From an uncultured Bacilli bacterium (GTDB taxonomy: Bacteria; Bacillota_I; Bacilli_A; RF39; UBA660): DNA of 64,000 nucleotides. Position 1 is the stretch's first letter. Every line of letters starts with the position of its first letter. The stretch covers positions 3,187-67,186 of the forward strand of contig CALVRJ010000002.1 of NCBI GenBank assembly GCA_944358545.1, in the 5' to 3' direction. Both the position numbers and the translations under genes were made by a program. Below, one piece after another: positions 20,773 to 44,395 of this stretch. The notes below the pieces were generated by a model. The model saw only the letters and a list, made by a program, of their open reading frames with translations. It made no database searches and was not told the DNA's origin.

Positions 20773-20782
20773 TATTTTTTTA

Positions 20783-21220: not shown

Positions 21221-21225
21221 ATTTT

Positions 21226-24019: not shown

Positions 24020-24067
24020 CTCTTACAACAAAAAGTGGAGAATAAGAAATTCTCCACGACATTATTC

Positions 24068-24681: not shown

Positions 24682-24854
24682 ATAAATAAAATGTTTGTTA
24701 TTTTTTATCATCCTTATTATTTTTTTATAGCACACTCTTAAATATTTTAAAGTAAATAAAAACAAATAACAAAATCCAAAAATATTTTAGCACAATTAGA
24801 ACCAAAAATCAATTGGTAAATTTTGCACCACTAGAATAATAAATAGGTGGTCAT

Positions 24855-25295: not shown

Positions 25296-25377
25296 AAAAT
25301 ATAATTTAGAAAGTTAAAAATCTAATATAAAAAAACGCAAAAAGTAAAACAAACTATAAATTTTACTTTTTGCGTTT

Positions 25378-29480: not shown

Positions 29481-29765
29481 CTACCTTTCAACATTTTTAT
29501 TATTTTTTTTTTGCAACACTTCACTAAGTACATCAATTAAATCAGGATAGCTTAACTTGGCAAGTTCAATTGCTCCGTTTAATCTTCGTAATCTTTGTTC
29601 TAAATAATAATTACTTTTATTAGCTCGTTTACAAAAATGAGAATAACTTTCTTTAATTTTATTAATTTCTGATTCATCTAACAAAACACGTACACCATAT
29701 TCAAGTAAGTAATAAAATGACTCTATTACAGTGCCTTTATTCTTTTTTAACATTTCTTTATCCAT
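29481..29765 (-). CDS. Hypothetical 94-aa protein
   Basis: ORF with coding-like composition inside the T4SS operon; no recognizable motif. Confidence 0.35.
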   Translation of the reverse strand: MDKEMLKKNKGTVIESFYYLLEYGVRVLLDESEINKIKESYSHFCKRANKSNYYLEQRLRRLNGAIELAKLSYPDLIDVLSEVLQKKNNKNVER

Positions 29766-29794
29766 TATAATACCTTTCCTTCCATAACATCTAT

Positions 29795-30631: not shown

Positions 30632-30642
30632 TTATTATTCTC

Positions 30643-30954
30643 CTACTTTAAAATAATATCTAAAATTGGTTGTATAAAAACCATTATAATTCCCCCACCA
30701 ACAGACAAAAAGCCATCAGTTCTTTGTGTCGCATCATGACTACGAATTGAAATTCCAATTTGCATAACACCAAAACCTGTAAAAATAACACCTATTGCCC
30801 TAACAAAACTAAATATAAAGTTTGTCAAATTATCTACAACAGTAATCGGATCATCTGCTGCAAACACAGAACCTCTCGTCCAAAACATCAATGAAATAGC
30901 AAACGTAATAAACTTATATAAACTTAAAAATTTATTTTTTCTCACTTTTCTCAC
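30643..30954 (-). CDS. Small T4SS membrane protein (TcpD/Orf19-like)
   Basis: 103 aa, signal anchor plus 2 TM helices. Confidence 0.4.
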   Translation of the reverse strand: MRKVRKNKFLSLYKFITFAISLMFWTRGSVFAADDPITVVDNLTNFIFSFVRAIGVIFTGFGVMQIGISIRSHDATQRTDGFLSVGGGIIMVFIQPILDIILK

Positions 30955-32758: not shown

Positions 32759-32763
32759 AACAA

Positions 32764-33549
32764 TTACCTAGAATATCCTCGGCTTCTATTAATAGTAACT
32801 CTTTGCAAATACTCATCAATGCCTTCATTAATTTTGTTTACAATATTTTTTATTTCAACTAAATCTTTTCGGGCTTCTATACTAGAATTATTTATAAATG
32901 TCTTTGGAAGTTCATCAAAAGAATATGAAGACACATCTAAATCATGAATTTTGCATAAAATATAAGCAATTGATGTAACTTTAAAATTATCCATTTCTTT
33001 ATCATAACTTGAAGTATATTCCAATCTTGCAAGTTCAAATGCTAATGATTTAAAAATCATATTATAGTCCATTCCCCTTCGAATATAAATAATATTCTTA
33101 TTATCACCAACTGTTTCATGACTAGCATTTAAATTAGAATCATCAAAGCCATCAACAGCTTTTATTTCCGCTAAATTATTATGCAAAAAAGCTTTTAATA
33201 GCGTTCTGTTATCATATTTTGTTTTTTTGTTTTTAGCATTTGTTTGGGAAATATCATACATTTCTTTAGAATGATAATCCATAATCTCTTTTTCACCATC
33301 AAAAACTGGTTCTAAAATATATATCGGTTTTGCCTTTTTTGATATCTTAATACTTTCTCTCTCCCAAGCTAAACTATCTTTTATAAGAGTTGCCTTAGGC
33401 ATTTGTGATGCTATTAAAATGGCATTTGCTGTAGAATACTTATAAAACTTTGCTTGAACATCTAAAAAATCTTTAAATGATATAGATTTGTTCTGCAAAT
33501 TTATTATTGCCTCATTTATTATTTTATATAATTCGTTATTATCTTTCAT
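32764..33549 (-). CDS. Hypothetical 261-aa ICE protein
   Basis: ORF within the transfer operon; no diagnostic motif recognized. Confidence 0.35.
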   Translation of the reverse strand: MKDNNELYKIINEAIINLQNKSISFKDFLDVQAKFYKYSTANAILIASQMPKATLIKDSLAWERESIKISKKAKPIYILEPVFDGEKEIMDYHSKEMYDISQTNAKNKKTKYDNRTLLKAFLHNNLAEIKAVDGFDDSNLNASHETVGDNKNIIYIRRGMDYNMIFKSLAFELARLEYTSSYDKEMDNFKVTSIAYILCKIHDLDVSSYSFDELPKTFINNSSIEARKDLVEIKNIVNKINEGIDEYLQRVTINRSRGYSR

Positions 33550-34315
33550 GGCTAGATTTCTCCTTATCTAATAAATTTTCTTCTTTTTTATTTACAAGTG
33601 ATTCTTTTATTTTCCTTAATTTTTTTCTAACAGACTCTTTCTTTTTAGTACCAATTTCTGAGCTTTTTTTGTTCTTCAAGGAAGGTTCGGACTGATTTTT
33701 TTTTACTTTGTTTTCAGACTTGTTTTTAGATTGATTGGAAAATAAATCTTTCATTATTTCCTCATCACTTTTATCTTTGTTTTTATTTTTTGAAGGCTTT
33801 GACAATATATCATCCACAATATCATCATCTTTAGTTCTAACATTTTTACCATGAGTTTTCTTATTATAATCTTTAGGACTATCGTTTTCATGCTCTACAG
33901 TTGTCTCTTTATAAGTTGAAAATTTATATCTATTTATTATGCGATTAATTCTTGCAGCGTCTTCGGCCCTTACCATAAAATCAATCATTCCATCTTTGTC
34001 TTGATGTTTTTTATCAATTAATAAAGCATATAATATTCCATATCTTTTAGCAACTTGTTGAAAAAATTTTAATTCTTCTTTTCTTACCGAAAACACTTTT
34101 AAAGGTCTACCTGACTTTAGTAATTTTTCAAGTTTAGTTTTTCCTTTAGTCTGTTTCTTCCCACGATAAATAGCATAAAGTAAAGCAGCAATATTTTTTG
34201 CTGCCACTCCTGTTAATCTCAAAGTAACTTCTGTTCCTTGCAAGCTCATTCTTACAACCGATTCAGCTGCCTCTCCTGAATTCATTTCTATCAACTTCCT
34301 TTCTATTTTCTTCAT
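33539..34315 (-). CDS. Hypothetical protein with ~120-aa Lys-rich low-complexity tail (relaxosome accessory candidate, PcfB/DUF3801-like?)
   Basis: N-terminal ~130 aa globular, then a K/N/S-rich tail; immediately downstream of the relaxase. Confidence 0.35.
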   Translation of the reverse strand: MKKIERKLIEMNSGEAAESVVRMSLQGTEVTLRLTGVAAKNIAALLYAIYRGKKQTKGKTKLEKLLKSGRPLKVFSVRKEELKFFQQVAKRYGILYALLIDKKHQDKDGMIDFMVRAEDAARINRIINRYKFSTYKETTVEHENDSPKDYNKKTHGKNVRTKDDDIVDDILSKPSKNKNKDKSDEEIMKDLFSNQSKNKSENKVKKNQSEPSLKNKKSSEIGTKKKESVRKKLRKIKESLVNKKEENLLDKEKSSHER

Positions 34316-35576
34316 CTTGTTTTTTTATATTATTTTCAATCATTGATTTTCTTTTTTCAATTTCGTAAAGTAGCTTAACCTCTCTACGTAAATCATTTAT
34401 TTCTTTACTTAATCGACTATTTTCAAGTTGATATGTTACCAAATCTTCTTTACTAGTAGTCTTCTTTATCTTATAATTTAACTTCTCTTTTCTATCTAAT
34501 AAAGTATCTAGTTGCTTTTCTTTCTTTGTTTTAAATTTAATAAAATCTACATCAGTAATTATATTATTATTTCCAAGTAATTCCGTTTGTTTCATTAGAT
34601 TATCAAACTCTTTTAAATCAGATCTAATTTCTGGAATTAATTTATAATTTAAATTCTTTTTAGGAAACACTTCAAGCAAATAACAATAATACATAAATAA
34701 TCCGTAAATTCCTTTATTTCTGTTTTTCATTTTAAAAAAGTTTTCTACAGGTGTTCTCCCTTTTTTAATAAAATTTTCTTCAATTCTTTTTATTATATTT
34801 GCTTTACTATACTCATTACCAAATGTTCTAGAAACCCTAACTTTAAACCCGTCTAGCTTTCTTCTTATACTAAATATCTTATTAATGATAGTAACTTCAT
34901 ATCCCATTGAATTTAATTTATTTAAAAAGTCTTTATACGAATAAGAATTTAAAATAGCCGCATCAAGATCATCTTTTATCATTTGATAATAATCAGAAGA
35001 ATTAACATATTTTTTATAAAAGTTTTCATACTTAAATCCTGCTTTACTCTTCTTTTCAGTAAGTATACTTAATCCATATTCTGCACATAAATCGTCCGAA
35101 AGTCTTCTTAATCTAGCATAATTAATATTGTTATCATAATATTTTTTTCCATCTTTAAAGGAAACTGAATTAATAACAAAATGGTTATGAATGTGTTTAG
35201 TATTTTGGTGAGTACTAATAACAACTTCAAATCTATCTCCCCACATTTCGTTAGCAAGTTGAACACCTATTTTATGAGCAAGTTCCGGAGTAACTTCACC
35301 TTCCGCAAAAGACTGATAAGCATGGAATCCTAAAATACCGCCTTCTTTTTTATATGACTTTTTAGTTAAAATCATTTCCTTATAAGCCGTCTCAACAGAA
35401 CAATTAAGTGCAGAAACATAACATTCCTTTTCTGATTTTAAATCTATAAGTTCCTTATCATGCAAATTAAAAAACTCTTCACCATAAGAAGAGTTTCTCG
35501 TTTTTTCAATATTAGTTGTATATTCTATAACATGATCTAATCTTTTGTTAATTTTCCATATTTTTGTAGTAGCCAT
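34263..35576 (-). CDS. Conjugative relaxase (MobA/VirD2 Relaxase domain, MOBP-like)
   Basis: Histidine triad HQNTKHIHNHFVIN (H.D/N..H.H.H); N-terminal Tyr region; C-terminal coiled-coil. Confidence 0.65.
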   Translation of the reverse strand: MATTKIWKINKRLDHVIEYTTNIEKTRNSSYGEEFFNLHDKELIDLKSEKECYVSALNCSVETAYKEMILTKKSYKKEGGILGFHAYQSFAEGEVTPELAHKIGVQLANEMWGDRFEVVISTHQNTKHIHNHFVINSVSFKDGKKYYDNNINYARLRRLSDDLCAEYGLSILTEKKSKAGFKYENFYKKYVNSSDYYQMIKDDLDAAILNSYSYKDFLNKLNSMGYEVTIINKIFSIRRKLDGFKVRVSRTFGNEYSKANIIKRIEENFIKKGRTPVENFFKMKNRNKGIYGLFMYYCYLLEVFPKKNLNYKLIPEIRSDLKEFDNLMKQTELLGNNNIITDVDFIKFKTKKEKQLDTLLDRKEKLNYKIKKTTSKEDLVTYQLENSRLSKEINDLRREVKLLYEIEKRKSMIENNIKKQDEENRKEVDRNEFRRGS

Positions 35577-35608
35577 ATATCACCACCCTAAATAACAAAA
35601 ATATAATA

Positions 35609-37078
35609 TTATTCATAAAAGAAAAAGTTTATTTCATCAGTACCAATAATGGAATCTATATTTTCTATTTCAGTTTCATTTATCAATACAGATTCATCAA
35701 TCTTAAAAGGAAGCCAAGAAGAATTCCATAATTCTTCTTTACAACCATAAACTTTTTTAGCTAATAAAGTAGAGTATTCTTTATCTCTGTTAAACTTTAA
35801 AGTTATACGCTGCAAACACATATTTATGTCATCTGTATTAGGTATTTCTTTAAATTTATTTCTAATACTTTCTATATAATAATCTATCTTATCAGTACAA
35901 AAGCTAAGTAACTTACTTAATATCCCTGAACAAGCCATATATGATTTAGGATTTCTAATTAATATATCGGTAGTTATACTGATTAATTGTTCCAAACATT
36001 CTGGTTCTTCTTCTAAATCTTTCAATTTTTTTTCATAGAAATTTACAAGCATTTTTTTTACAAAACTACTGTTTGGATTTTTCAAAGAAAACTGTCTTAT
36101 TTTTAATAACCAGTTTAAAATACTTTTATCTTCAACTATCAAAAACAAACTATTCAATTTATCTTGTTTAATAGAATTAGATATAACATCATCACAAACA
36201 AAAGTCTTTTTAGTATTAAATTTCATGTTTAATTCTGATAAAACTTCTGATAAAATTTTCAAAATCTTTTCTAAATCAGATTTACTATTTGAAAAAATTC
36301 TATAATCATCTCTAAATCGTATTATCTTATAATCATATATATCTTTTAATCTTTCAGATAATAACATATCTGCATATCCTAAAACTATTTCGGCAATAAA
36401 ATCCATTAATACACTTCCCTGAGGAATACCATTTGTTTGTCCATATGACATACATTGTATTCTCTCATCAATGATATTACCTATTATAGGGTCAAAGCGA
36501 TGGTCTTTCGCATATAATTTATCATGTATTGCCCACGAAATAGAATGAGTATATATAGAACTATAGCAATTTTCAATATCCGCATGAGCCATATATTTAT
36601 AATTCAAAGATAATTGTATACTTCGATTTTCAATGTTCTCTAACCAATTATCTATTATATTTGCAGTAGAACTTTTATCATTATCCGAATCAAAAGGAAT
36701 ACTATAACATTCAATATTACATAAATTTCTAAATTGTTTTAATCGTTCTGTTATAATTTTCCAATTATCAGGTTTTGTTATTTCATAAACTAAATCTATA
36801 TATAAAATTGGATGTATTATTTGCAGTTGTCGCCAAGTATATTTACCATCCTTGTTCGACATATAATTGTAATTAACATTCTCACATTTTTTAACTTGTT
36901 TTATTAAGTCTTTATCAAGTTTACATGAAAGATCATAAAAATATTTACATTCTGACATTTTTAATAAAGCACCAAAATCAAAATATTTTGGCAAATCAAT
37001 CGAACAATAATTAGAACCTTCTAGGAAAAAAAGCTTTGCTTGATTAGCCTCCATATCTATAACGCTTAATCTTTCCAT
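35609..37078 (-). CDS. Reverse transcriptase-like protein (Abi/unknown-group, putative defence RT) embedded in the mob operon
   Basis: RT palm motifs: A (MAHADIENCYSSI), B (GIPQGSVLMDFIAEIVL), C-like (IIRFRDDYRIF). No maturase/X or endonuclease domain and no canonical YADD. Confidence 0.6.
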   Translation of the reverse strand: MERLSVIDMEANQAKLFFLEGSNYCSIDLPKYFDFGALLKMSECKYFYDLSCKLDKDLIKQVKKCENVNYNYMSNKDGKYTWRQLQIIHPILYIDLVYEITKPDNWKIITERLKQFRNLCNIECYSIPFDSDNDKSSTANIIDNWLENIENRSIQLSLNYKYMAHADIENCYSSIYTHSISWAIHDKLYAKDHRFDPIIGNIIDERIQCMSYGQTNGIPQGSVLMDFIAEIVLGYADMLLSERLKDIYDYKIIRFRDDYRIFSNSKSDLEKILKILSEVLSELNMKFNTKKTFVCDDVISNSIKQDKLNSLFLIVEDKSILNWLLKIRQFSLKNPNSSFVKKMLVNFYEKKLKDLEEEPECLEQLISITTDILIRNPKSYMACSGILSKLLSFCTDKIDYYIESIRNKFKEIPNTDDINMCLQRITLKFNRDKEYSTLLAKKVYGCKEELWNSSWLPFKIDESVLINETEIENIDSIIGTDEINFFFYE

Positions 37079-37131
37079 ATTACCACCTCGACAAGTATTA
37101 TATCACTCATCATTTGTCTTTTCATTGTCTT

Positions 37132-37446
37132 TTATATTAAAAATTCTTTTTTTATATCTATAATAAATTTGTTCAACTTTTCTGTTTCTTTGTTATATGA
37201 ATCTCTATCTATATAATTTAAATGATTGGCTTTCTTTGCAATTTGATTTAAATTATTTCCTATATATCTAAGTTGTTTAATTGCCTCATAAAACCTATCA
37301 TCAGGTTTTTCTCTCGGCTGAAAATTCATTATTAAATTACGTAATAAAGTAGCCTCATTTAAACCGGTTTTTTTAGCTTGTTTTTTTAACTGTGTAGCTT
37401 CTTCTCTATTAAGCCATATTTGTTTTTTTATATTTCTTTTTCTCAT
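37132..37446 (-). CDS. mobC: MobC-family relaxosome accessory protein
   Basis: FYEAIKQLRYIGNNLNQIAKKANHLN is the MobC signature (L..IGNNLNQIA). Start placed at ATG 37446 (MRKRNIKK...). Confidence 0.6.
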   Translation of the reverse strand: MRKRNIKKQIWLNREEATQLKKQAKKTGLNEATLLRNLIMNFQPREKPDDRFYEAIKQLRYIGNNLNQIAKKANHLNYIDRDSYNKETEKLNKFIIDIKKEFLI

Positions 37447-37544
37447 TTTATTACATTTCCACCTTTCAAACTTAAATTTCCCACATATATAAACCATAAT
37501 TTTATTAGAATATTACGGGAGTAAATATTCAGTGCTTGCTAGGA

Positions 37545-37578
37545 CAAAAATTCAGACCTAAAAAAATCTGAATTTAAT
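37545..37578 (-). terminator. Hairpin AAATTCAGA(N11)TCTGAATTT plus T-run: terminator after the primase-like gene and/or oriT-associated inverted repeat upstream of mobC
   Basis: 9-bp stem read directly; T-run on the minus strand; ~90 nt upstream of mobC. Confidence 0.4.
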
Positions 37579-37598
37579 CCTTAAACACACTGAAAAAA

Positions 37599-38540
37599 TC
37601 ATCGGCTTTCTCTATCTATGTTCCTCTTTACATAACATAAAAAATCATTAAAATCTTTACAAATTACAGCTGGCTTATCAAACACTTCATATCCGCCTGA
37701 TAAAACATTGCTTATCGCTTTAGCTGATAACCTACCTACATCATCATTATCTAAATGTAAAATAATCCTTTTTATATTTGGATTATTTTTTAAATAATTA
37801 AGTAATGACGAAGGCAAATTACTATACCTAAGATTATTTGGAACATAAACTCCACCAAATGATAACAAGTTATATTTATGCCAGTCAATATTACTCATTT
37901 TTAATATAGTAGCATAAGATAACAAGTCAATTGCACTTTCAAACAAATGTAGATCTTTATTCTTCACGTCAGAACTAATTCTAAATGAATACTCTTTACA
38001 GCTTCCAGTTACTTCCTTAATAAATCTATGTTGTCCGGTGCCTCTGCACATTGCATATTTTGGCACTTTATTTTCATTATATCCAACAAAAACTACATTA
38101 TTATTAACATCTTGATAAATAAGACTATTATTTATACATTCATTAATAATTGAATCATCAATACCTCTTTTAGTTAAATACTTTATTGCTACATCGTTAT
38201 TTTTAGCTTTAACTGGTAACTTAAACATTGTTTTATTAACTTCTGGACACTTAGAAATATCTAGATTCTGAACCATATTAATTTTATCTAATATTATTTT
38301 CATAGAATCCATAAAACTATAACCTCTAACTTTAATTAAATAATCTAATGCGCTCTTTCCACCAATGCTTTTTGAAAACCAATACCACATACCATTAGAA
38401 ATCTTTAAACTATCATGAGTCTTTGTCGTATAGTTTCCTCTACAAACAACAATCAGTTCATCTGGCTCAAAGTTCTGCAAATATGTTAGTAAATCGATTT
38501 GTTTTACTTTTTGAATTGTATTTTTTGAATAATAAGGCAT
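37599..38540 (-). CDS. DUF3991 plus Toprim domain protein (putative conjugative primase)
   Basis: Toprim acidic motif IILHLDNDDVG; preceding ESAIDLLSY region typical of DUF3991 proteins of Firmicutes ICEs. Confidence 0.5.
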   Translation of the reverse strand: MPYYSKNTIQKVKQIDLLTYLQNFEPDELIVVCRGNYTTKTHDSLKISNGMWYWFSKSIGGKSALDYLIKVRGYSFMDSMKIILDKINMVQNLDISKCPEVNKTMFKLPVKAKNNDVAIKYLTKRGIDDSIINECINNSLIYQDVNNNVVFVGYNENKVPKYAMCRGTGQHRFIKEVTGSCKEYSFRISSDVKNKDLHLFESAIDLLSYATILKMSNIDWHKYNLLSFGGVYVPNNLRYSNLPSSLLNYLKNNPNIKRIILHLDNDDVGRLSAKAISNVLSGGYEVFDKPAVICKDFNDFLCYVKRNIDRESR

Positions 38541-38545
38541 AATTA

Positions 38546-38770
38546 TTATCTTTCCAATTCTTTCTTTTTGGCTTTTTCATTAAATAATGTTTCAATATAT
38601 TCCTTAATATTAATCTCTTTAATAGCTTCTGAATCAAGGACATATTCGCCACTATAATATTTTTCTTTCACAATGTTAATAGCATCCTTCAAAGACTTGG
38701 ATTTAACTTCAACAACATCTTGTAAAATTTCCTCTATTTCTATTTTGTATGTTTTCATTTTATCCTCCAA
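38546..38770 (-). CDS. Hypothetical 74-aa protein
   Basis: ORF only. Confidence 0.3.
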   Translation of the reverse strand: MEDKMKTYKIEIEEILQDVVEVKSKSLKDAINIVKEKYYSGEYVLDSEAIKEINIKEYIETLFNEKAKKKELER

Positions 38771-38820
38771 TCTAAAAAAGTGCTTTAATTATATACAATC
38801 AAAACACTTTATACATGTTT

Positions 38821-39117
38821 TCAAATTTTTTCATTTAAACCTTTAATAAATATTTCCTTAAGTTCAATATCGTATTTTCTTTGTTTCACATCTAATAACA
38901 ATATAAGATTATTCACCTCTTCCATTGTAAGTGAACATGCTTCTTTATCTTCTAATACTTTTCGTATACGTGGATAATTATTTAATATTAATTCTTCTTT
39001 TTTGCAATAATAATTATATTGTTTGTTTTTCCTTTTTAGTTCACATAATACATCAGAAAAAAACTCGGCAAAACATTTATTGATTGCATAATCTTTTATA
39101 AAACTTTTTTTCATCAC
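38821..39117 (-). CDS. Hypothetical 98-aa protein
   Basis: ORF only. Confidence 0.3.
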   Translation of the reverse strand: MMKKSFIKDYAINKCFAEFFSDVLCELKRKNKQYNYYCKKEELILNNYPRIRKVLEDKEACSLTMEEVNNLILLLDVKQRKYDIELKEIFIKGLNEKI

Positions 39118-39202
39118 ATTGCCCCACTTTCAATATTAATTTTATACAAAACAATTAAATATTTACAATGTGCAAATAAATAAGTCTACATTATTGACAA
39201 AA

Positions 39203-39538
39203 CTATCTTTCTTGTTCATTTTCTTTATATTTAGTAGATAAAAAAGTAACCTTCTCCGCAATTACTTCCATAACAATTCTATTATTTTCATCGTTATTGT
39301 AAGTTTGAAGACGACCTTTAATACCAACAAGATCACCTTTCTTACAATATTCAGCCGTATTAGTAGCAATTCCTTGCCACAATTTACAATTTACAAAGTC
39401 AGTTTCATACTCACCATCTTCATTTTTAAAAGACCTTGGCACTGCCAATGTTACATTTGTATACTTCTTTCCGCTTTCAGTTTCATAAACCTCTGGTTCA
39501 TTTGCTAAACGTCCTACTAAAACTACCTGATTTAACAT
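39203..39538 (-). CDS. ssb: Single-stranded DNA-binding protein (plasmid/ICE type, no acidic tail)
   Basis: OB-fold N-terminus MLNQVVLVGRLANEPE...; 111 aa. Confidence 0.75.
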   Translation of the reverse strand: MLNQVVLVGRLANEPEVYETESGKKYTNVTLAVPRSFKNEDGEYETDFVNCKLWQGIATNTAEYCKKGDLVGIKGRLQTYNNDENNRIVMEVIAEKVTFLSTKYKENEQER

Positions 39539-39683
39539 TTACATCACAACCTTTCCTTTTTTATTTAAAAGTGTTCAATCATTTTATTAGTTTTTAAATA
39601 GAAGCTTTTTTCAAAAACATTTTCCTATCTACGCATATAAAAGTAATAACTTCCTACCTAAGTTTTCATCTCCTTAAGAATTT

Positions 39684-40325
39684 TTAATATTTCTCTTTTG
39701 AATTTAAGTAATTAATATAAATAGTTTGCTCTGTATCGTTATTTTTGGTACAAGTAATTAACGTTAAAGTACTTTTATTTGAATTACGTTGTATTTTTAC
39801 TTTGCCAGTTTTTTTCACGTTATAAATGTTATCTAAAATATACTCATATTTTATTCCAGAATAATAAATATACACTTTAGCACCTGTTTTTAATTTATAT
39901 AAATTTTTAAAATAAGATATATTACTAGTTCCAGAATGTGCTGCCAAAATCAAATTTCCTTTATCAACATCAGGAAATTGTGAACCTTCAATAATTTGGA
40001 TTCCTTTATCAACATCATTTCTAAAAGAATTAAAATCTACAAGTCCTGTTTTTAATAAAACAGAAGGTATTTCTAACACTGCAATATAAACATTTTCTGA
40101 TTGACTATTTACATTTTTAATTTCTGTATTTGATTTATTATTTTGCTTGAAAAAAGCGTCTACAGATTTCTCATTTTCAATTAAAGGTTCTTCATATTTA
40201 TAAAGATTATAGGTATATAACGTTATTCCAATAAGAAGTAAAAAAAGGCCTAATAGTAATAGACCTTTTGAATTCTTATTCTTTTTTACTTTTATTTCTT
40301 CTTTTTTTAACTTCATCATAAACAA
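39684..40325 (-). CDS. Sortase (probably class B) dedicated to the adjacent adhesin
   Basis: N-terminal TM, catalytic His (LILAAHSG) and TLITC Cys motif. Confidence 0.7.
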   Translation of the reverse strand: MFMMKLKKEEIKVKKNKNSKGLLLLGLFLLLIGITLYTYNLYKYEEPLIENEKSVDAFFKQNNKSNTEIKNVNSQSENVYIAVLEIPSVLLKTGLVDFNSFRNDVDKGIQIIEGSQFPDVDKGNLILAAHSGTSNISYFKNLYKLKTGAKVYIYYSGIKYEYILDNIYNVKKTGKVKIQRNSNKSTLTLITCTKNNDTEQTIYINYLNSKEKY

Positions 40326-41841
40326 TAATTCCTATTCCAGCAGCACATATAATAACAGCGATTATATTACCAATGTTAGATTGATTTTTTTGAGTATTAG
40401 GTACATTAACAATTTGTTCATTGGTCATTGTAGCTTTAACTATTTCACCATTTTCTTTGATTTCAAAATAAACTTTTTCATCTGATAATTTATAACCAGT
40501 AGCAGGATTACGTTCTATAATATAATATTTTTGACCAGCGAGTAAATCTGTAATGACAATCTTTCCATTCTCATCTGTTACTCCTTGATAAACGAGTCTA
40601 TCATCTTCTGTGAAAATCATTATCTCAGTGTTTGGAATAACATTACCATTGGTAAAGTCAAGTTTTGTAAACTCGAGTGTCCCTTTTGGTAAATAGTTTT
40701 GAATGTCTAATTTTTTAATAATCTTACCATTCACTAAATCATTTTTAGTTGTTTCAAAATAATATTTTTCATTACTTACCATATTTCCTTGTGCTGATTT
40801 ACCTTCAACTAAGAAATATTTACCGTAATACATATTTTCAAGTTTAACAAATCCAAGTTTATCTGTTGTTAAAGTATCAATAAGATCATATTTTTTATAA
40901 ATAACTTTACCAGTACTATCAACTATATCTTCATTTGCATAAATTGCAAATTCAACTTCAGGTAAATTTATTGTTTCATAACTATAACTGCCATTAGAAT
41001 AAACAATTTTTTCGCCTTTCTTATTAATTTCAACAGAACCACCATTAGATTTAATTTTTATTTCAAAATTTAACGGATTACTAATTCTTAATGTAGCTAA
41101 TGTTTGAGAACTCTCTTTATAGTAAATCAAATTAACTTGATTATCATAGTTTTTCTTAACAAACTTAAGAGTTTCTTCACCAATAAAATTATCATCTAAT
41201 TTAATATCTAAATTATTAACATTAACTGATACTTTGTTTTGTCCATTATAATTAAGACTAAATTGATTTAATACTTTGTTTGTATCGTTTAAAACAATTT
41301 CATCACCCATGTTAGCTTCAATTTTATCATTTGCAAAACTAGGTAAAGAACTATAATTATTCACCAAATTTAAAATATCATTCTTTTCTTTAGTTAAATC
41401 AATTTCTGTACCACCATTTCGTTCTGTGGTATATTTTGTTTCTACATTTCTTGCTTTTTCCCAAATAAGTTGTTGAGCAGCCATATAATATTTATCTGTT
41501 TGATGACCAGGGTATTCATAACCGAAATAACCAACTTTTTCAATAAAATCTTCTTGTTCATCCGAAAGACCAACTACACTCCAATCAGTTGTTGAATTGT
41601 ATGTGTGATCAGTTATTTGAACTAATGGTTCAATACAATAAGCTAACTTTTCATTTAAATAAAACTTGTTAGCGTGTCCAGTCATTATCTTACCGGTATC
41701 TTTATCTTTCTGATAATAATAAGCCCCATCTATTACTTCTTTTGTAAACTGTGAATCATTCTCCGCTGCCTTAACTGTATTAGCCGAACCAACTGAAAAA
41801 ATTGGTAACAAAGCTAAAATAATTCCTAATAATTTTTTCAT
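40276..41841 (-). CDS. Sortase-anchored surface adhesin: thioester domain plus 2 Cna-B/prealbumin-like domains (TIE-protein-like)
   Basis: Signal peptide from MKKLLGIILALLPIFSV. Cys in AYCIEP and Gln in AAQQLIWE match the thioester [YF]C / TQxA(I/V)W pair. Two TDENGKIV...GQKYY.IE-type Cna B repeats. C-terminal VPNTQ-hydrophobic-KKRRNK sorting signal. Track start 41889 lies inside an upstream terminator hairpin. Confidence 0.5.
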   Translation of the reverse strand: MKKLLGIILALLPIFSVGSANTVKAAENDSQFTKEVIDGAYYYQKDKDTGKIMTGHANKFYLNEKLAYCIEPLVQITDHTYNSTTDWSVVGLSDEQEDFIEKVGYFGYEYPGHQTDKYYMAAQQLIWEKARNVETKYTTERNGGTEIDLTKEKNDILNLVNNYSSLPSFANDKIEANMGDEIVLNDTNKVLNQFSLNYNGQNKVSVNVNNLDIKLDDNFIGEETLKFVKKNYDNQVNLIYYKESSQTLATLRISNPLNFEIKIKSNGGSVEINKKGEKIVYSNGSYSYETINLPEVEFAIYANEDIVDSTGKVIYKKYDLIDTLTTDKLGFVKLENMYYGKYFLVEGKSAQGNMVSNEKYYFETTKNDLVNGKIIKKLDIQNYLPKGTLEFTKLDFTNGNVIPNTEIMIFTEDDRLVYQGVTDENGKIVITDLLAGQKYYIIERNPATGYKLSDEKVYFEIKENGEIVKATMTNEQIVNVPNTQKNQSNIGNIIAVIICAAGIGIIVYDEVKKRRNKSKKE

Positions 41842-41871
41842 AAATAATTTCTTCCTTTCTAATTCTTCAAT

Positions 41872-41896
41872 AAAAAAAGCGATTACCAAGATCGCT
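41872..41896 (-). terminator. Hairpin AGCGAT(N7)ATCGCT plus T7 between the par genes and the adhesin gene
   Basis: Read directly; T-run on the minus strand. Confidence 0.4.
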
Positions 41897-42139
41897 CATG
41901 TCTAACACTTATAGCAAATATAAACAAACATTTTAATACTATTAATACAAGTGATAATAATAATTTACAAACTGAAAAAATGACAATACCAAATATGCTA
42001 AAAATATTCTTAATCATATAAAACAACTCCTTTGAGTTTATATTAAATCACAATATATATTTTTTACAAGTATATAGATATTCTTTCAGTTGGTATTTAA
42101 TAATTAATATATAATTATATTTAGTAAAATTTACTCCCA

Positions 42140-43090
42140 CTATCTTTCCATCTGATGTCTTTCTTTTTGCTTTTTACAGTAATATTCAACTGCTTTAATT
42201 ACAAATTCCTCTTTTTCTTTTTCAGAAACCAAATTTTGTGGAAGTATATTTCTTAAACGATTCATATTGATTTTTAGTTTTTGAACTTGATTAGGTTTTT
42301 CAATATTTAAAATGTTTTCAATTGTTGAATAATCTAATTTACTTTTTTGACTTAATTCTTTTAACTGAATTGCCTGACTTAATGAAGGTGTAATCAAACT
42401 ACATTCTATAAAATCAGACAACATCGTTTGCTCTTCTTTTGATAAAAACGAAATTTCAACAGCCGGTCGTAAAGCTATACTCGGAGTATTACCTAAAACA
42501 TTATTATCAACAAATTTTAAAATGTCAGGTATAAGCTCTGTTAAACGAATATATCTTTGAACTTGTCTACCACTTTCACCAAATTCTTTACCTACAAGTT
42601 CAGCACTACTAAACTTATCGACCACTGGTCGCAAAGTTAAGATATCTTTTTTACCTTGATGCTTTATTGCCTCCAGTTTCATTTTATAAGCAAATGCTCT
42701 CTCGCTAGGGAGTATCTTTTCCCTTTGCATATTACTATCGACCATAATAATAGTTGCTTCATCATCGGTTAACTCCCGAATAATACACGGCATAGTTGTC
42801 TTTCCAGCAATTTCACTTGCTCTTTTTCTTCGATGACCAGAAATCATTTCATATCTACCGTTTTTTGGACGTATTATAGCAGGTACTAAAACACCACTTT
42901 CTCTTATACTATCAGCCATCTCAAATAATTCATCATTATCATTGACTTTAAATGGATGATTTTCAAATGAATCAATTTCAGATAAATTTACATCTACTAT
43001 CTTTTGAGCATTATTATATATGCGTTCTTCTTCCGTTGAAAATAAATCATCTAACTTGTTCAATCTTTCCGACAAATCGTTCTTTTTCAT
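42140..43090 (-). CDS. parB: ParB/KorB-like partition protein
   Basis: ParB box II ISGHRRKRA; overlaps parA. Confidence 0.7.
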   Translation of the reverse strand: MKKNDLSERLNKLDDLFSTEEERIYNNAQKIVDVNLSEIDSFENHPFKVNDNDELFEMADSIRESGVLVPAIIRPKNGRYEMISGHRRKRASEIAGKTTMPCIIRELTDDEATIIMVDSNMQREKILPSERAFAYKMKLEAIKHQGKKDILTLRPVVDKFSSAELVGKEFGESGRQVQRYIRLTELIPDILKFVDNNVLGNTPSIALRPAVEISFLSKEEQTMLSDFIECSLITPSLSQAIQLKELSQKSKLDYSTIENILNIEKPNQVQKLKINMNRLRNILPQNLVSEKEKEEFVIKAVEYYCKKQKERHQMER

Positions 43091-43868
43091 TGCTTATCAC
43101 CTCCAAAGCAAGAGAACAATATGCTTCAGATACCGGATTTTTTCTATCATAAGATAAAATACTTTTACCATAAATAGAAGATTCTGCGGTTTTTATAGCA
43201 ATTGGTATTTTTGATTTAAAAATATTTAATTGTGAACCGTATTCACTATGCAATAATTCATCTACGTTTTTAGATAAATTAGTTCTACGATCAAACAATG
43301 TCAATAAAACACCAGCAATTGATAAATTAGGATTTATTTGTCTTCTAACTTTATTGATAGTTTGTATTAATTGTGTCATTCCACGAAGTGCCAAATATTG
43401 ACTTTGAACAGGAATTATAACTTCATCTGAAGTAGCTAATGCATTAACAGTAATCATTCCCAACGATGGTGAACAATCAATCAAAATATAATCATATTTT
43501 TTCTTCAAATCATATATACATCTTTTTAATGTATACTCCCTACTCATGGCGTTAACTAAAGACATTTCCATAGCTGATAAATCCAAATTTGCGGGAATCA
43601 AATCTAGTCTTTCCTTATGATGTAATATAGCTTTATCAAAATATATAAGCTTATCATTCATAGATTGTTCCATTAAATCAGCTAAAGTTAAAGGTAATTC
43701 ATCCGAGTTATACCATCCCATATAAGTTGTTAAGTCTCCTTGAGGATCTGTATCAACTAATAAAACCTTTTTTCCAGCATTAACCAAAGCTACACCTAAA
43801 TTAAATACTGTTGTTGTTTTACCAACACCACCTTTCTGATTAACAACAGCAATAATTTTACCGTCCAT
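43047..43868 (-). CDS. parA: ParA/Soj family partition ATPase
   Basis: Deviant Walker A NQKGGVGKTT; 273 aa. Confidence 0.85.
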   Translation of the reverse strand: MDGKIIAVVNQKGGVGKTTTVFNLGVALVNAGKKVLLVDTDPQGDLTTYMGWYNSDELPLTLADLMEQSMNDKLIYFDKAILHHKERLDLIPANLDLSAMEMSLVNAMSREYTLKRCIYDLKKKYDYILIDCSPSLGMITVNALATSDEVIIPVQSQYLALRGMTQLIQTINKVRRQINPNLSIAGVLLTLFDRRTNLSKNVDELLHSEYGSQLNIFKSKIPIAIKTAESSIYGKSILSYDRKNPVSEAYCSLALEVISNEKERFVGKIEQVR

Positions 43869-43886
43869 TTTTATCCCTCCTTTCCA

Positions 43887-43919
43887 TAAAAAAAAGCCAT
43901 CTTAAAAAATAAAATGGCT
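43887..43919 (-). terminator. Hairpin AGCCAT(N13)ATGGCT plus T8 immediately upstream of parA
   Basis: Read directly; would block read-through from the uvrB-fragment promoter. Confidence 0.4.
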
Positions 43920-43994
43920 ATGTACACAAGCAAAATATGTTAAAAAGGTAAATACCATCGTTACCAAAATTAAATTTTTAATTATACTTTCGCC

Positions 43995-44015
43995 ACACAT
44001 AAAAGTCACAAACTT
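43995..44015. repeat. Right copy of 21-bp direct repeat ACACATAAAAGTCACAAACTT (candidate attR core)
   Basis: Exact match to 15838-15858. Confidence 0.6.
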
Positions 44016-44116
44016 TTTGTGTCCATCTAGTATTATTAAGTTTTTTTAATGTTTTTTAATACTTTTTTAGGGATTATCAAACATCAAAAAGTCTTAAAAA
44101 TCAACGGTTTTTAATG

Positions 44117-44395
44117 TTAAACATAGTATGAAACGAAATATTCGACCGCATTTTCAGGAAATAATTCCTTAAGCTCTGCGTATAACTGTCCAGCAAGCGT
44201 CTTATTATGAGCTAAAACTAAAGTTGGTTTTTGAACCCTTTCAATCACATTGGCAATCGTAAAAGTCTTTCCAGTACCTGTTGCTCCAAGTAATACTTGA
44301 CTTTTCTTACCTTCTTCAATCCCTTCCACTAATTTATCTATCGCCTGTGGCTGATCACCACTAGGTTTAAACTTTGAATGAATCTTAAATTTCAT
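44117..44395 (-). pseudogene. uvrB': Duplicated, diverged uvrB 5' fragment (codons 1-91, then stop)
   Basis: 92-aa ORF identical in protein to UvrB residues 1-91 except N32S. At nt level, the first ~58 nt are identical to 15663-15720, then ~85-90% identity with mostly synonymous changes. Walker A retained; RBS AAAGGTGA. Confidence 0.8.

What the first reader, a model, noticed from the sequence alone, without database searches (positions are those of the whole stretch)
39684..41896. ICE-borne thioester-domain (TIE-like) adhesin with its own sortase
The 520-aa surface protein has a Cys (AYCIEP) and a downstream AAQQLIW motif, matching the Cys-Gln internal thioester signature. It also has two Cna-B-type domains and a non-canonical sorting signal (VPNTQ), followed by a class-B-like sortase gene. 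Thioester adhesins encoded on conjugative elements are proposed to covalently grab recipient cells during mating. A terminator hairpin (41872-41896) isolates it from parAB and shows the track's start codon is too far upstream.
Basis: partly seen in the sequence, partly recalled or inferred. Interest (0 to 1): 0.55.

Follow-up and report, generated by a model that had tools for sequence, protein, structure and literature searches.

The report
ICE thioester adhesin with own sortase
A mobile DNA element in an uncultured gut bacterium carries a surface "harpoon" adhesin of a known type (class II thioester domain) next to its own anchoring enzyme; the adhesin is ordinary for its kind, but the enzyme belongs to a large unnamed family that lacks the arginine thought to be universal in sortases.

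Summary
Window 40276-41841 (-) encodes a 521-aa secreted protein. It has a signal peptide, a class II thioester domain (TED), two CnaB isopeptide domains, a VPNTQ sorting signal, a TM helix and a basic tail. A 211-aa sortase gene (39684-40319) overlaps its end by 44 nt.

The pair sits in the backbone of a ~28.7-kb ICE inserted in uvrB, which carries integrases, relaxase, T4CP and VirB4.

Three corrections:
- AAQQLIW is the helical TQxxΦW motif, not the bond-forming Gln. By alignment to SaTIE-TED, the thioester partner of Cys69 is the invariant Gln246.
- The sortase is not class-B-like. It is nearest class A/C/D and meets no NCBIfam class cut-off.
- The upstream hairpin exists but is weak, and no promoter fits after it, so it is more likely an attenuator than an insulator.

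Class II TED adhesins on conjugative elements are already known (TIEpLS20, 2021), so the adhesin is a new member of a known kind.

The newer points concern the sortase:
- Its family (at least 505 clusters) has an invariant Gln where the catalytic Arg should be.
- It co-varies strictly with [VI]PxT signals.
- It occurs as natural adhesin-sortase fusions.
- It also occurs as chromosomal pairs with short TED-only proteins in gut Bacilli.

The parts
40276..41841 (-). Adhesin gene, 521 aa: signal peptide, class II TED, two CnaB isopeptide domains, sorting signal
   Evidence: ORF and sequence. Pfam TED and SpaA. PDB BaTIE and SaTIE-TED. AF2 pLDDT 87.1. Foldseek 6fwv E 2e-24 and 6fx6 TM 0.75.
41767..41841 (-). 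Signal peptide, residues 1-25 (MKKLLGIILALLPIFSVGSANTVKA|AEN)
   Evidence: Read from the sequence. The model has an N-terminal helix 2-16 followed by a low-pLDDT linker. The cleavage site is inferred.
41047..41754 (-). Class II thioester domain, about residues 30-265, including a seven-strand beta-sandwich insert (about 173-242)
   Evidence: SaTIE-TED alignment covers query 38-274 and profile positions 52-277. The model has seven strands between helix 150-163 and strand 246-250. Class definition from PMC6194298.
41635..41637 (-). Cys69 codon (YCIE motif), the predicted thioester Cys
   Evidence: Invariant in 31 homologues. Aligns to SaTIE Cys296 (with numbering). Sits at the end of strand 65-69.
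41461..41481 (-). AAQQLIW, residues 121-127: the helical TQxxΦW motif, not the bonded Gln
   Evidence: Lies in helix 116-130. Q123 is invariant. The motif's role is taken from PMC4450167.
41104..41106 (-). Gln246 codon (SSQTLA), the predicted thioester-forming Gln
   Evidence: Invariant. Aligns to SaTIE Gln467 in both the single-sequence and profile searches. Sits at the start of strand 246-250.
40687..41040 (-). CnaB isopeptide domain 1, about residues 268-385; predicted Lys274-Asn382 bond with catalytic Glu346
   Evidence: K274, E346 and N382 are invariant. They align to BaTIE Lys297, Glu343 and Asn373 (alignment with numbering).
40411..40686 (-). CnaB isopeptide domain 2, about residues 386-477; predicted Lys393-Asn474 bond with catalytic Glu443
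   Evidence: K393 and E443 are invariant and N474 is at least 90% conserved. They align to BaTIE Lys475, Glu524 and Asn555.
40279..40404 (-). Cell-wall sorting signal: VPNTQ (40390-40404), hydrophobic helix, KKRRNKSKKE tail
   Evidence: P481 and T483 are invariant and V480 is at least 90% conserved. The fifth position varies.
39684..40319 (-). Dedicated sortase, 211 aa: N-terminal TM helix, His128, Cys190 (TLITC, codon 39750-39752), Gln198 (codon 39726-39728) at the canonical Arg position
   Evidence: Pfam Sortase. Identical to P0121, 211 aa. Invariant residues. PDB alignments. Model and fold search.
41877..41897 (-). Weak terminator/attenuator hairpin plus T-run, overlapping the stop codon of the small ORF
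   Evidence: Energy -6.9 kcal/mol. Kept in L003 with one G-C to A-U compensatory change.
41883..42017 (-). 44-aa hydrophobic small ORF between parB and the adhesin, preceded by an AAAGGAG ribosome-binding site
   Evidence: Conserved in L003. Called as a gene in L084.
40243..40269 (-). Terminator-like hairpin plus T-run just after the adhesin stop codon, inside the 5' end of the sortase gene
   Evidence: Energy -10.8 kcal/mol, z -5.0. Analogous hairpins with different sequences occur in L003, L011, L015 and L068.
15446..44121 (-). The ICE that carries the pair, about 28.7 kb: two Tyr integrases, MazF, sigma factor, SPase I, ABC ATPase, CHAP hydrolase, VirB4, PrgI, VirB6-like, T4CP, DUF3801, MobA relaxase, AbiP2 RT, MobC, DUF3991-Toprim, SSB, sortase, adhesin, ParB, ParA
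   Evidence: Pfam. The duplicated uvrB 5' end gives the boundaries. The same element sits at uvrB in other metagenomes.

Best explanation
The locus encodes a secreted, sortase-anchored adhesin of the TIE family, together with its own anchoring enzyme.

**How it most likely works**
1. The signal peptide is removed after export.
2. The N-terminal class II thioester domain folds as a slipknot and forms a Cys69-Gln246 thioester on its own.
3. The two CnaB domains each lock with a Lys-Asn isopeptide bond (K274-N382 and K393-N474). Together they form a short rigid stalk.
4. The C-terminal VPNTQ signal, TM helix and basic tail hold the protein in the membrane.
5. The co-encoded membrane sortase (His128, Cys190) cleaves after Thr483 and joins the adhesin to the cell wall.
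6. The exposed thioester can then react with an amine on a partner surface to give a covalent link.

**Proposed role.** The pair occupies a conserved backbone position in this ICE family (parA-parB-adhesin-sortase-ssb-primase-mobC-relaxase). A class II TED adhesin is needed for efficient pLS20 conjugation. The most likely role is therefore donor-to-recipient attachment, that is, formation or stabilisation of mating pairs in the gut.

**Shown here:** the domain content, fold, conserved residues, gene linkage and ICE context.
**Inferred:** bond formation, sortase cleavage, and the role in mating.
For: **Identity**
- Pfam TED scores above its cut-off, with two SpaA domains.
- PDB sequence hits are BaTIE and SaTIE-TED.
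- The AF2 model has pLDDT 87.
- Foldseek's best hits are BaTIE (503 aligned columns, E 2e-24) and SaTIE-TED (TM 0.75).

**Bond residues**
- C69 and Q246 are invariant in 31 homologues sharing 43-90% identity.
- They align to SaTIE Cys296 and Gln467, whose bond was solved crystallographically (PMC6194298).
- Both lie in beta-strands, and seven sandwich strands lie between helix 3 and Q246.
- The isopeptide triads align to those of BaTIE.

**Sortase-substrate link**
- The genes overlap by 44 nt.
- A family sortase lies directly downstream, or is fused, in 64 of 82 related loci.
- All 64 of those adhesins carry [VI]PxT. Of 16 loci without the sortase, 15 carry LPxT or MPxT (Fisher p = 2e-15).
- In six loci the adhesin and sortase are one ORF, arranged VPxTG-TM-loop-TM-sortase.
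- The 64-kb window holds no other sortase and no other sorting signal.

**ICE and conjugation context**
- The element has integrases, relaxase, T4CP and VirB4, flanked by a uvrB duplication.
- Synteny is the same in L003, L010 and L011, and partly so in L015 and L019, while the adhesin diverges to 33% identity.
- Other T4SS backbones carry the pair as well: L002 and L020-25.
- Precedent: TIEpLS20, including the loss of function of its C68S mutant (PMC8092201).
Against: - No experiment bears on this protein.
- The sortase family lacks the canonical catalytic Arg and has an invariant Gln instead, so its activity is unproven.
- The fifth residue of the sorting signal is Gln, not Gly.
- About half of the related loci are short TED-only proteins paired with the sortase in ordinary chromosomal cell-envelope neighbourhoods, for example L054. 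The module is therefore not specific to conjugation.
- L001-type long forms lie outside any recognisable ICE.
- TIEpLS20, the only tested conjugation TED adhesin, is independent of sortase.
Confidence: 0.6

Rival explanations
1. The pair is a colonisation or fitness cargo. The thioester adhesin binds a host, mucus or dietary-particle protein, or other microbes in biofilms. The ICE merely spreads it, and it has no part in DNA transfer.
For: - Every TED target characterised before 2021 was a host protein, for example SfbI with fibrinogen (PMC4450167).
- Short TED-plus-sortase pairs are chromosomal cell-envelope genes in the same lineages.
- Some long forms lie next to chromosomal-looking genes.
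- C. difficile conjugative transposons carry the sortase-anchored adhesins CD0386 and CD3392, which have no known role in transfer (PMC5569036).
Against: - The pair holds a fixed position inside the DNA-processing and partition backbone across ICE relatives that share only 33-83% adhesin identity. It is not in a variable cargo region.
- At least two other T4SS backbones carry it beside their transfer genes.
- The pLS20 precedent supports a transfer role.
Confidence: 0.25
2. The sortase is a pseudo-enzyme, or only a processing protease, because it lacks the catalytic Arg. The adhesin then stays membrane-tethered by its C-terminal helix, or is released, rather than being linked to the wall.
For: - Gln198 replaces the beta8 Arg in 149 of 149 family representatives.
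- The alignments to BaSrtA and LmSrtA place the Arg on this Gln.
- The hosts belong to lineages with reduced or partly lost peptidoglycan pathways (PMC10868615).
Against: - His128 and Cys190 are as invariant as Gln198 across at least 505 clusters. This argues for a conserved chemistry.
- The strict co-variation with [VI]PxT signals and the natural fusions indicate that the sortase recognises the signal.
- From my own knowledge, unverified here: SrtA tolerates an uncharged H-bond donor (citrulline) at Arg197, so a Gln amide could serve.
Confidence: 0.1
3. The protein is a pilin. The sortase polymerises it into a conjugative or adhesive pilus instead of anchoring monomers.
For: - Many Foldseek hits are pilins such as SpaA, BcpA, RrgB and GBS52.
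- VPxTG-type signals are used by pilus-specific sortases, for example VPDTG in RrgC and VPPTG in Cpa.
- The nearest NCBIfam model is class C.
Against: - The pilin hits come from the shared CnaB folds. The best full-length match is the monomeric adhesin BaTIE.
- There is only one substrate gene and one sortase. I saw no YPKN-type pilin motif when reading the sequence, and no shaft or base pilin gene is nearby.
- The class C score is 68 bits against a cut-off of 160.
Confidence: 0.04
4. One reading: the thioester forms between Cys69 and the Gln of AAQQLIW, and a class-B-like sortase anchors the protein.
For: Both motifs are invariant. In solved TEDs the motif's Gln contacts the backbone of the thioester Cys (PMC4450167), so the two residues would also be close in a model.
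Against: - The motif is helical.
- Its Gln is not the bonded residue and is dispensable in Cpa.
- Solved class II TEDs use a Gln 171-204 residues downstream of the Cys, which aligns to Gln246.
- There is no class B signal in NCBIfam, the PDB sequence search or Foldseek.
Confidence: 0.01

Closest known systems
BaTIE (B. anthracis BA5258/BasC, PDB 6FWV) and SaTIE-TED (PDB 6FX6): class II TED TIE proteins (Miller, Banfield & Schwarz-Linek 2018)
   Same: - Signal peptide, N-terminal class II TED with a beta-sandwich insert, CnaB isopeptide stalk and a C-terminal sorting signal.
- The Cys, the bonded Gln and the Lys/Glu/Asn triads all align.
- These are the best sequence and fold matches.
   Different: - Only 19-23% identity.
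- Two stalk domains instead of three (BaTIE).
- A VPNTQ signal served by a dedicated sortase, instead of LPATG served by a housekeeping sortase.
- ICE-borne in an uncultured gut lineage.
TIEpLS20 (p34 of B. subtilis plasmid pLS20; Gago-Cordoba et al. 2021)
   Same: - A class II TED adhesin encoded inside the transfer region of a Gram-positive conjugative element.
- YC(I)(D/E) Cys motif, with the Gln about 180-190 residues downstream (Cys68/Gln256 there, Cys69/Gln246 here).
- This is the experimental basis for the proposed mating role.
   Different: - TIEpLS20 has no sorting signal and no sortase gene, and is unaffected by host sortase knock-outs.
- It is 778 aa with a different C-terminal region.
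- It is on a plasmid, not an ICE.
pCW3-family SrtD (class D sortase) of C. perfringens conjugative plasmids
   Same: - A sortase carried by a conjugative element.
- It is reported as required for efficient transfer (Revitt-Mills 2021, as cited in PMC8225981).
- It is the closest sortase in the annotated plasmid collection, at 34% identity.
   Different: - CpSrtD keeps the catalytic Arg (KDRYIV).
- It recognises LPxTG-type signals.
- It is not paired with a TED protein by an overlapping reading frame.
CD0386 and CD3392 of C. difficile CTn1 and CTn7
   Same: Wall-anchored CnaB-type adhesins encoded on conjugative transposons of gut Firmicutes.
   Different: - They are anchored by the host's class B sortase through SPKTG.
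- No element-borne sortase is reported for them.
- I did not check whether they contain a TED.
Pilus-specific sortase systems that use VPxTG signals (S. pneumoniae RrgC VPDTG; S. pyogenes Cpa VPPTG with Spy0129)
   Same: Val at the first position of the sorting motif, and a dedicated sortase encoded beside its substrate.
   Different: - Those are multi-pilin loci with canonical His-Cys-Arg sortases of class C or B, and Gly is kept at position 5.
- Here there is one substrate, position 5 is free, and the Arg is replaced by Gln.

Membership tests
TIE proteins / class II thioester domain | [YFL]C-Φ-ζ motif carrying the thioester Cys in a beta-strand | tested here: met
   The motif is YCIE. Cys69 is invariant in 31 homologues, sits at the end of strand 65-69 and aligns to SaTIE Cys296.
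TIE proteins / class II thioester domain | Thioester-forming Gln in a weak ΦQζΦΦ beta-strand motif, 170-205 residues after the Cys | tested here: met
   Gln246 (SQTLA) is invariant and lies 177 residues after Cys69. It aligns to SaTIE Gln467 and sits at the start of strand 246-250.
TIE proteins / class II thioester domain | Central helical TQxxΦWΦxζ motif | tested here: met
   The motif is AAQQLIWEKA, within helix 116-130. Q123, I126 and W127 are invariant. The Thr is replaced by Ala or Thr across the family.
TIE proteins / class II thioester domain | Seven-stranded beta-sandwich of about 75 residues inserted between helix 3 and strands P/Q (slipknot topology) | tested here: met
   Seven predicted strands lie between residues 173 and 242, after helix 150-163. 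Foldseek gives TM 0.75 to SaTIE-TED and 503 aligned columns to BaTIE.
TIE proteins / class II thioester domain | An actual Cys-Gln thioester bond (17 Da mass loss, reactivity with methylamine) | not testable with these tools
   This needs mass spectrometry. The model's coordinates were not exposed, so even the Cys-Gln distance could not be computed.
TIE proteins / class II thioester domain | CnaB isopeptide stalk domains with a Lys / Asn(Asp) / Glu triad | tested here: met
   Two PF17802 stretches. K274/E346/N382 and K393/E443/N474 are conserved and align to the BaTIE triads.
Sortase (Pfam PF04203, cysteine transpeptidase) | Sortase fold with an N-terminal membrane anchor | tested here: met
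   Pfam E 1.6e-15. TIGR01076 scores 55 bits against a cut-off of 39. Model helix 17-43 is followed by a beta-barrel. Foldseek gives TM 0.78 to class A sortases.
Sortase (Pfam PF04203, cysteine transpeptidase) | Catalytic His and the Cys of the TLxTC motif | tested here: met
   His128 (LAAHSG) and Cys190 (TLITC) are invariant in 149 representatives.
Sortase (Pfam PF04203, cysteine transpeptidase) | Conserved catalytic Arg at the start of strand beta8 | tested here: not met
   There is no Arg after Cys190. Gln198 is invariant in 149 of 149 representatives and aligns to the Arg of BaSrtA and LmSrtA. The CpSrtD alignment is offset by one residue in an ungapped tail. Arg178, in the preceding loop, is 75% R and 15% K.
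Class B sortase | Match to the class B sequence model or structures; NPQTN- or SPKTG-type substrates | tested here: not met
   No class B model was hit. The best hits are class C at 68 bits and SrtD at 54 bits, both far below their cut-offs. PDB sequence neighbours are class A, C and D, and a class B chain appears only at E 9e-4. No class B structure is in the Foldseek top 50.
Integrative conjugative element (MPF-FA-like, Firmicutes type) | Integrase, relaxase, coupling protein and VirB4 ATPase within one element bounded by repeats at an insertion site | tested here: met
   Two Tyr recombinases, a MobA relaxase, T4CP, VirB4, PrgI, a VirB6-like protein and a CHAP hydrolase. About 275 bp of the uvrB 5' end is duplicated at 88% identity at the two ends. 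The same element sits at uvrB in other metagenomes.
Integrative conjugative element (MPF-FA-like, Firmicutes type) | Excision and transfer | not testable with these tools
   This needs experiments, or read-level evidence for circular forms.
Conjugation (mating-pair) adhesins of Gram-positive elements (TIEpLS20, PrgB) | Encoded within the conserved transfer backbone of the element | tested here: met
   The order parA-parB-adhesin-sortase-ssb-primase-mobC-relaxase is conserved in L003, L010 and L011, and partly in L015 and L019. The pair lies next to T4SS genes in L002 and L020-25.
Conjugation (mating-pair) adhesins of Gram-positive elements (TIEpLS20, PrgB) | Required in the donor for efficient transfer | not testable with these tools
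   The host is uncultured and no genetics are available.

The most novel reading that the evidence does not exclude
The sortase next to the adhesin represents a large, unnamed sortase class. It has at least 505 clusters at 50% identity, mostly in uncultured gut Bacilli of the RF39/RFN20-like lineages.

Its features:
- It works with a His-Cys-Gln active site instead of the supposedly universal His-Cys-Arg.
- It is dedicated to class II TED proteins that carry [VI]PxT-x signals in which the fifth position is free.
- It has repeatedly been fused to its own substrate, giving self-sorting adhesins.

ICEs have taken up this self-contained adhesin-plus-anchor cassette, here together with an ICE-borne signal peptidase. 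That would let them display a covalent mating adhesin in hosts that lack housekeeping sortases.
Probability: 0.4. Interest if true: 0.7.

Novelty: new variant of a known kind. Interest (0 to 1): 0.45.

Why it matters
**What is already established.** Covalent thioester adhesins are a known way for Gram-positive bacteria to attach to targets. Since 2021 one has been shown to drive mating of a Bacillus plasmid. This locus extends that picture to ICEs of abundant but uncultured gut Bacilli, where nothing is known about how mating pairs form.

**What is more interesting.** The anchoring enzyme is the more interesting part. The Arg of the sortase triad is treated as invariant and essential. A large natural family with an invariant Gln there would bear directly on what that residue does in catalysis. 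The family is tightly coupled to a relaxed VPxT-x signal and sometimes fused to its substrate.

**Possible consequences.**
- It could supply new sortase specificities for protein engineering.
- It would correct the view that these gut lineages lack sortases and wall-anchored proteins.

**If the sortase proves inactive,** the finding reduces to a routine new member of the TIE family on a mobile element.

Tried and rejected
- **Cys69-Gln123 pairing.** Rejected. The motif is helical, the literature says its Gln is not the bonded residue, and solved class II TEDs align their bonded Gln to Q246.
- **Class B sortase.** Rejected.
- **Direct Cys-Gln distance.** Structure prediction returns no coordinates and /data holds no model file, so this was not possible.
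- **Aligning the BaTIE TED by sequence.** Only the CnaB part aligns significantly. The TED match to BaTIE rests on Foldseek.
- **Literature on sortases lacking the Arg, or on Arg197 replaced by citrulline.** The held library returned nothing. The novelty of the Gln substitution and the mechanistic argument therefore rest on my own knowledge.
- **Annotated plasmids.** No close relative of either protein: 37% identity or less for the adhesin, and partial; 34% or less for the sortase.
- **Source genome.** The genome-contig scan did not return it (best match 83% identity). The host is inferred only from relatives, which are uncultured gut Bacilli or 'Tenericutes' MAGs.
- **Conjugation genes around the short TED-only loci.** tblastn with this ICE's proteins found none within 10 kb. 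Pfam on L054 showed a chromosomal cell-envelope neighbourhood. A general link between the whole family and conjugation was therefore dropped.
- **Pilus reading.** Considered and given low weight: there is a single substrate, I saw no pilin motif, and the best match is monomeric BaTIE.
- **Hairpin as a strong insulator.** Not supported. It is weak (z -1.5) and no promoter can fit between it and the ATG.


Full report
**1. What is at the coordinates**

On the minus strand, the longest open frame runs 41889-40276 from a TTG. The ATG at 41841 is the better start. It lies 8-9 nt after an AAAGGAAG ribosome-binding site. It gives a 521-aa product identical to the public gene call P0001 and to the calls in three other metagenome contigs.

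The product begins with a typical signal peptide (MKKLLGIILALLPIFSVGSANTVKA|AEN). A sortase gene follows at 40319-39684. It encodes 211 aa, identical to P0121, and overlaps the adhesin's last 44 nt in another frame.

**2. The adhesin is a class II thioester-domain (TIE) protein**

- Pfam gives TED PF08341 above its gathering score (25.6 against 22 bits) and two SpaA/CnaB stretches.
- A sequence search of the PDB finds only two strong hits. They are the B. anthracis TIE protein (6FWV, 4e-21) and the S. aureus TIE thioester domain (6FX6, 6e-12). With a profile of 31 homologues these improve to 1.6e-35 and 1e-23.
- Both are founding structures of class II TEDs (Miller et al. 2018, PMC6194298).
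- An AlphaFold2 model built on the 31-sequence alignment is confident (mean pLDDT 87.1).
- Foldseek against the PDB returns BaTIE first (E 2e-24, 503 aligned columns) and SaTIE-TED with TM 0.75.
- Between the third helix (150-163) and residue 246 the model has seven beta-strands. This matches the roughly 75-residue sandwich insert that defines class II.

**3. Which Gln forms the bond**

That is not how TEDs work.

Walden et al. 2015 (PMC4450167) describe three conserved motifs:
- the [YFL]CΦζ strand, which carries the Cys;
- a central alpha-helical TQxxΦWΦxζ motif;
- a weak ΦQζΦΦ strand, which carries the bonded Gln.

The Gln and Trp of the helical motif contact the Cys backbone but are not needed for bond formation.

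In solved class II TEDs the bonded residues are far apart in sequence: Cys71/Gln266, Cys296/Gln467 and Cys88/Gln292. In TIEpLS20 they are Cys68/Gln256.

I counted through the phmmer alignment to SaTIE-TED. Chain index 47 is Cys296 and chain index 218 is Gln467. On that count, query Cys69 matches Cys296 and query Gln246 (ESSQTLATL) matches Gln467. The profile alignment gives the same pairing.

Cys69, Gln123 and Gln246 are all invariant in the 31-homologue alignment. In the model:
- AAQQLIW lies in helix 116-130;
- Cys69 ends strand 65-69;
- Gln246 begins strand 246-250.

The predicted thioester is therefore Cys69-Gln246. I could not measure the distance because the tools do not expose coordinates.

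**4. Stalk**

The same alignments, combined with BaTIE numbering, place two isopeptide triads.
- Lys274/Glu346/Asn382 align to BaTIE Lys297/Glu343/Asn373.
- Lys393/Glu443/Asn474 align to BaTIE Lys475/Glu524/Asn555.

Five of these six residues are invariant and Asn474 is at least 90% conserved. The protein is in effect a shorter BaTIE, with two stalk domains instead of three.

**5. Sorting signal and sortase**

The C-terminus reads VPNTQ, then a spacer, a hydrophobic helix and KKRRNKSKKE. Across homologues Pro481 and Thr483 are invariant and Val480 is nearly so. The fifth residue varies: Q, K, E, G, A, S, I, L and D all occur.

The sortase has the Pfam domain and passes the general TIGR01076 model. 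It reaches no NCBIfam class cut-off. Its best scores are class C at 68 bits (cut-off 160) and SrtD at 54 bits (cut-off 140), with no class B hit.
- Its PDB sequence neighbours are B. anthracis SrtA, class C sortases and C. perfringens SrtD.
- The AF2 model (pLDDT 73.8) is closest to class A (TM 0.78), class C and class E structures. No class B structure is in the top 50.

"Class-B-like" is therefore not supported.

**6. Evidence that this sortase serves this adhesin**

I scanned one genome per species and found 212 relatives of the adhesin, of which 80 loci were kept. Two more loci came from contig look-ups.
- tblastn finds a homologue of the window's sortase immediately downstream in 64 of the 82 loci.
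- All 64 of those adhesins carry [VI]PxT.
- Of 16 complete loci without the sortase, 15 carry LPxT or MPxT instead (Fisher p = 2e-15).
- In six loci from different assemblies (L072, L077, L079-L082) the two genes form a single ORF of 861-971 aa. Its layout is TED, stalk, VPxTG, TM helix, short basic loop, TM helix, sortase domain. A seventh such protein appears among the library representatives (P0354).

This fusion is classic evidence of a functional link, and its topology places both the substrate motif and the catalytic domain outside the cell. The window holds no other sortase or sorting signal.

**7. An unexpected property of the sortase family**

An exhaustive profile search finds 505 clusters (at 50% identity) with E of 1e-30 or better. 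In an alignment of the window's sortase with 148 of the best-scoring representatives (149 sequences), only six columns are invariant: Pro116, His128, Gly130, Phe137, Cys190 and Gln198.

No Arg follows the TLITC cysteine. In profile-to-PDB alignments that run through strand beta8, the catalytic Arg of B. anthracis SrtA (…KDNSKRYVVAGDL) and of L. monocytogenes SrtA (…TETTKRFVAVGEL) falls on Gln198 (…KQTVYIGYL).

The C. perfringens SrtD alignment puts its Arg one residue earlier. That alignment is an ungapped tail across a loop that differs in length by one residue. In the model Gln198 sits at the start of the last strand, 197-210, which is where the Arg sits in canonical sortases.

Arg178, in the loop before the Cys strand, is common (75% R, 15% K) but not invariant.

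I found no description of such a family in the held literature or in NCBIfam. That is absence of evidence within these libraries only.

**8. Genomic setting**

The pair lies in an element of about 28.7 kb with all genes on the minus strand. In order it carries:
- two tyrosine recombinases, MazF, a sigma-70 region-4 protein and a signal peptidase I;
- an ABC ATPase followed by a 723-aa protein with no Pfam hit, then an HTH regulator on the plus strand;
- a CHAP hydrolase, VirB4, PrgI, a VirB6/TrbL-like protein, the T4CP and DUF3801;
- a MobA-type relaxase, a reverse transcriptase, MobC, DUF3991-Toprim and SSB;
- the sortase, the adhesin, a 44-aa small ORF, ParB and ParA.

A full uvrB lies at 13768-15720. 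A 92-codon uvrB 5' remnant lies at 44117-44395. The two 5' ends align over about 275 bp at 88% identity. The ICE has therefore inserted about 92 codons into uvrB and supplies a replacement 5' end. The same element at the same site, with different outer flanks, occurs in other gut metagenomes.

Relatives with the same backbone order are L003, L010 and L011, and in part L015 and L019. They keep the adhesin-sortase pair in the same place while the adhesin diverges to 33-35% identity. Other T4SS backbones also carry the pair next to their transfer genes (L002, L020-25).

By contrast, roughly half of the loci encode a short protein of about 300 aa. It has a TED and a VPxTG signal but no stalk, and the sortase follows it. 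In the complete MAG chromosome L054 this pair sits among housekeeping envelope genes: YfhO, a YkuD L,D-transpeptidase, Amidase_3 and HtrA.

The cassette is therefore older and broader than its use on ICEs. The stalked forms are the ones found on conjugative elements.

The hosts are uncultured gut Bacilli or 'Tenericutes' MAGs. A recent survey reported srtA/B as absent from parts of these lineages (PMC10868615). That would explain why the element carries its own sortase.

**9. Transcription signals**

- **Hairpin at 41897-41877.** It is real and is kept in L003 with one compensatory G-C to A-U change. It is weak, at -6.9 kcal/mol and z -1.5. It overlaps the stop codon of the conserved small ORF. 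Only about 36 nt lie between it and the adhesin ATG, so the adhesin must be transcribed through it. It is better read as a partial terminator or attenuator than as an insulator.
- **Hairpin at 40269-40243.** This stronger hairpin with a T-run (-10.8 kcal/mol, z -5.0) lies just after the adhesin stop codon, inside the 5' end of the sortase gene. Hairpins with different sequences occupy the same place in L003, L011, L015 and L068, but not in most other related loci, including nearly all the short-form ones (6 of 53 loci overall). This may set a high ratio of adhesin to sortase.

**10. Mechanism, rivals and novelty**

The best-supported account is a sortase-anchored covalent adhesin displayed by the ICE donor. 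By analogy with TIEpLS20, it would promote mating-pair formation. In pLS20, deleting the gene or mutating C68S cut liquid-medium conjugation (PMC8092201).

How secure each part is:
- The protein's identity is secure.
- Anchoring by the neighbouring sortase is strongly suggested by the linkage, the co-variation and the fusions.
- The mating role is inferred.

The main rival is that the pair is a colonisation cargo. Smaller rivals are an inactive sortase and a pilus.

Annotated plasmids hold no close relative. The nearest sortase there is the pCW3-family class D sortase at 34% identity. That enzyme has itself been reported as needed for efficient pCW3 transfer (cited in PMC8225981).

The adhesin is a new member of a known kind. 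The cassette as a whole is a new variant of a known kind: a Gln-type dedicated sortase, a relaxed VPxT-x signal, fusion forms and carriage on an ICE.

Noticed in passing
window 39726-39728 (Gln198 codon of the sortase, 39684-40319, minus strand): The sortase family has an invariant Gln where the canonical catalytic Arg of strand beta8 should be (149 of 149 representatives; at least 505 clusters at E 1e-30 or better). Only P116, H128, G130, F137, C190 and Q198 are invariant. No NCBIfam class cut-off is met.
   Followed up: yes
L072 9980-12955; L077 9980-12913; L079 9959-12688; L080 2949-5882; L081 9899-12946; L082 4152-7124: Natural single-ORF fusions of a TED adhesin with its sortase (861-971 aa). 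The layout is VPxTG, TM helix, short basic loop, TM helix, sortase domain. This suggests self-sorting adhesins.
   Followed up: partly
L054 9848-11345, and about 40 similar loci such as L031 and L035-L059: Short TED-only proteins of about 300 aa with VPxTG signals and no stalk, each followed by the same type of sortase. In L054 the pair sits among chromosomal cell-envelope genes (YfhO, YkuD, Amidase_3, HtrA) of uncultured gut Bacilli.
   Followed up: partly
window 13768-15720 and 44117-44395: The ICE is inserted about 92 codons into uvrB and brings its own replacement uvrB 5' end. About 275 bp of the two ends are 88% identical, which leaves a 92-aa N-terminal remnant upstream of parA. The same insertion site is seen in other metagenomes (L083-L085).
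   Followed up: partly
window 35609-37078 (minus strand): The reverse transcriptase between mobC and the relaxase gene is a full-length AbiP2-type defence RT (PADLOC E 1e-170). It is absent from the related ICE backbones L003, L010 and L011.
   Followed up: partly
window 20783-21240 (minus strand): ICE-borne signal peptidase I. The ORF listed from its ATG (114 aa) lacks the TM helix and the catalytic Ser. The frame stays open upstream (…IKNKKISLIIYLIFLAIVLYFCFSFGLFKVDGNSMKPNL) with no ATG, GTG or TTG, which suggests a non-canonical start such as ATT or ATA. With the sortase, it gives the ICE its own export and anchoring toolkit.
   Followed up: partly
window 40243-40269 (minus strand): A strong terminator-like hairpin (-10.8 kcal/mol, z -5) lies just after the adhesin stop codon, inside the sortase coding region. 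Hairpins with different sequences occupy the same place in L003, L011, L015 and L068, but in only two other related loci (6 of 53 in all).
   Followed up: partly
window 41883-42017 (minus strand): A conserved 44-aa, very hydrophobic small ORF (MIKNIFSIFGIVIFSVCKLLLSLVLIVLKCLFIFAISVRHERSW) with its own ribosome-binding site lies between parB and the adhesin. Its stop codon is in the loop of the hairpin. Its function is unknown.
   Followed up: partly
window 15969-18462, 18923-19309 and 21226-24019 (minus strand): The ICE also carries two tandem tyrosine recombinases, a MazF/PemK toxin with no antitoxin noted next to it, and an ABC ATPase followed by a 723-aa protein with no Pfam or PADLOC hit.
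   Followed up: no
window 43895-43919 (minus strand): A strong terminator-like hairpin (-11.6 kcal/mol, z -4.7) lies between the uvrB remnant and parA. It probably stops read-through from the chromosomal uvrB promoter into the ICE.
   Followed up: no
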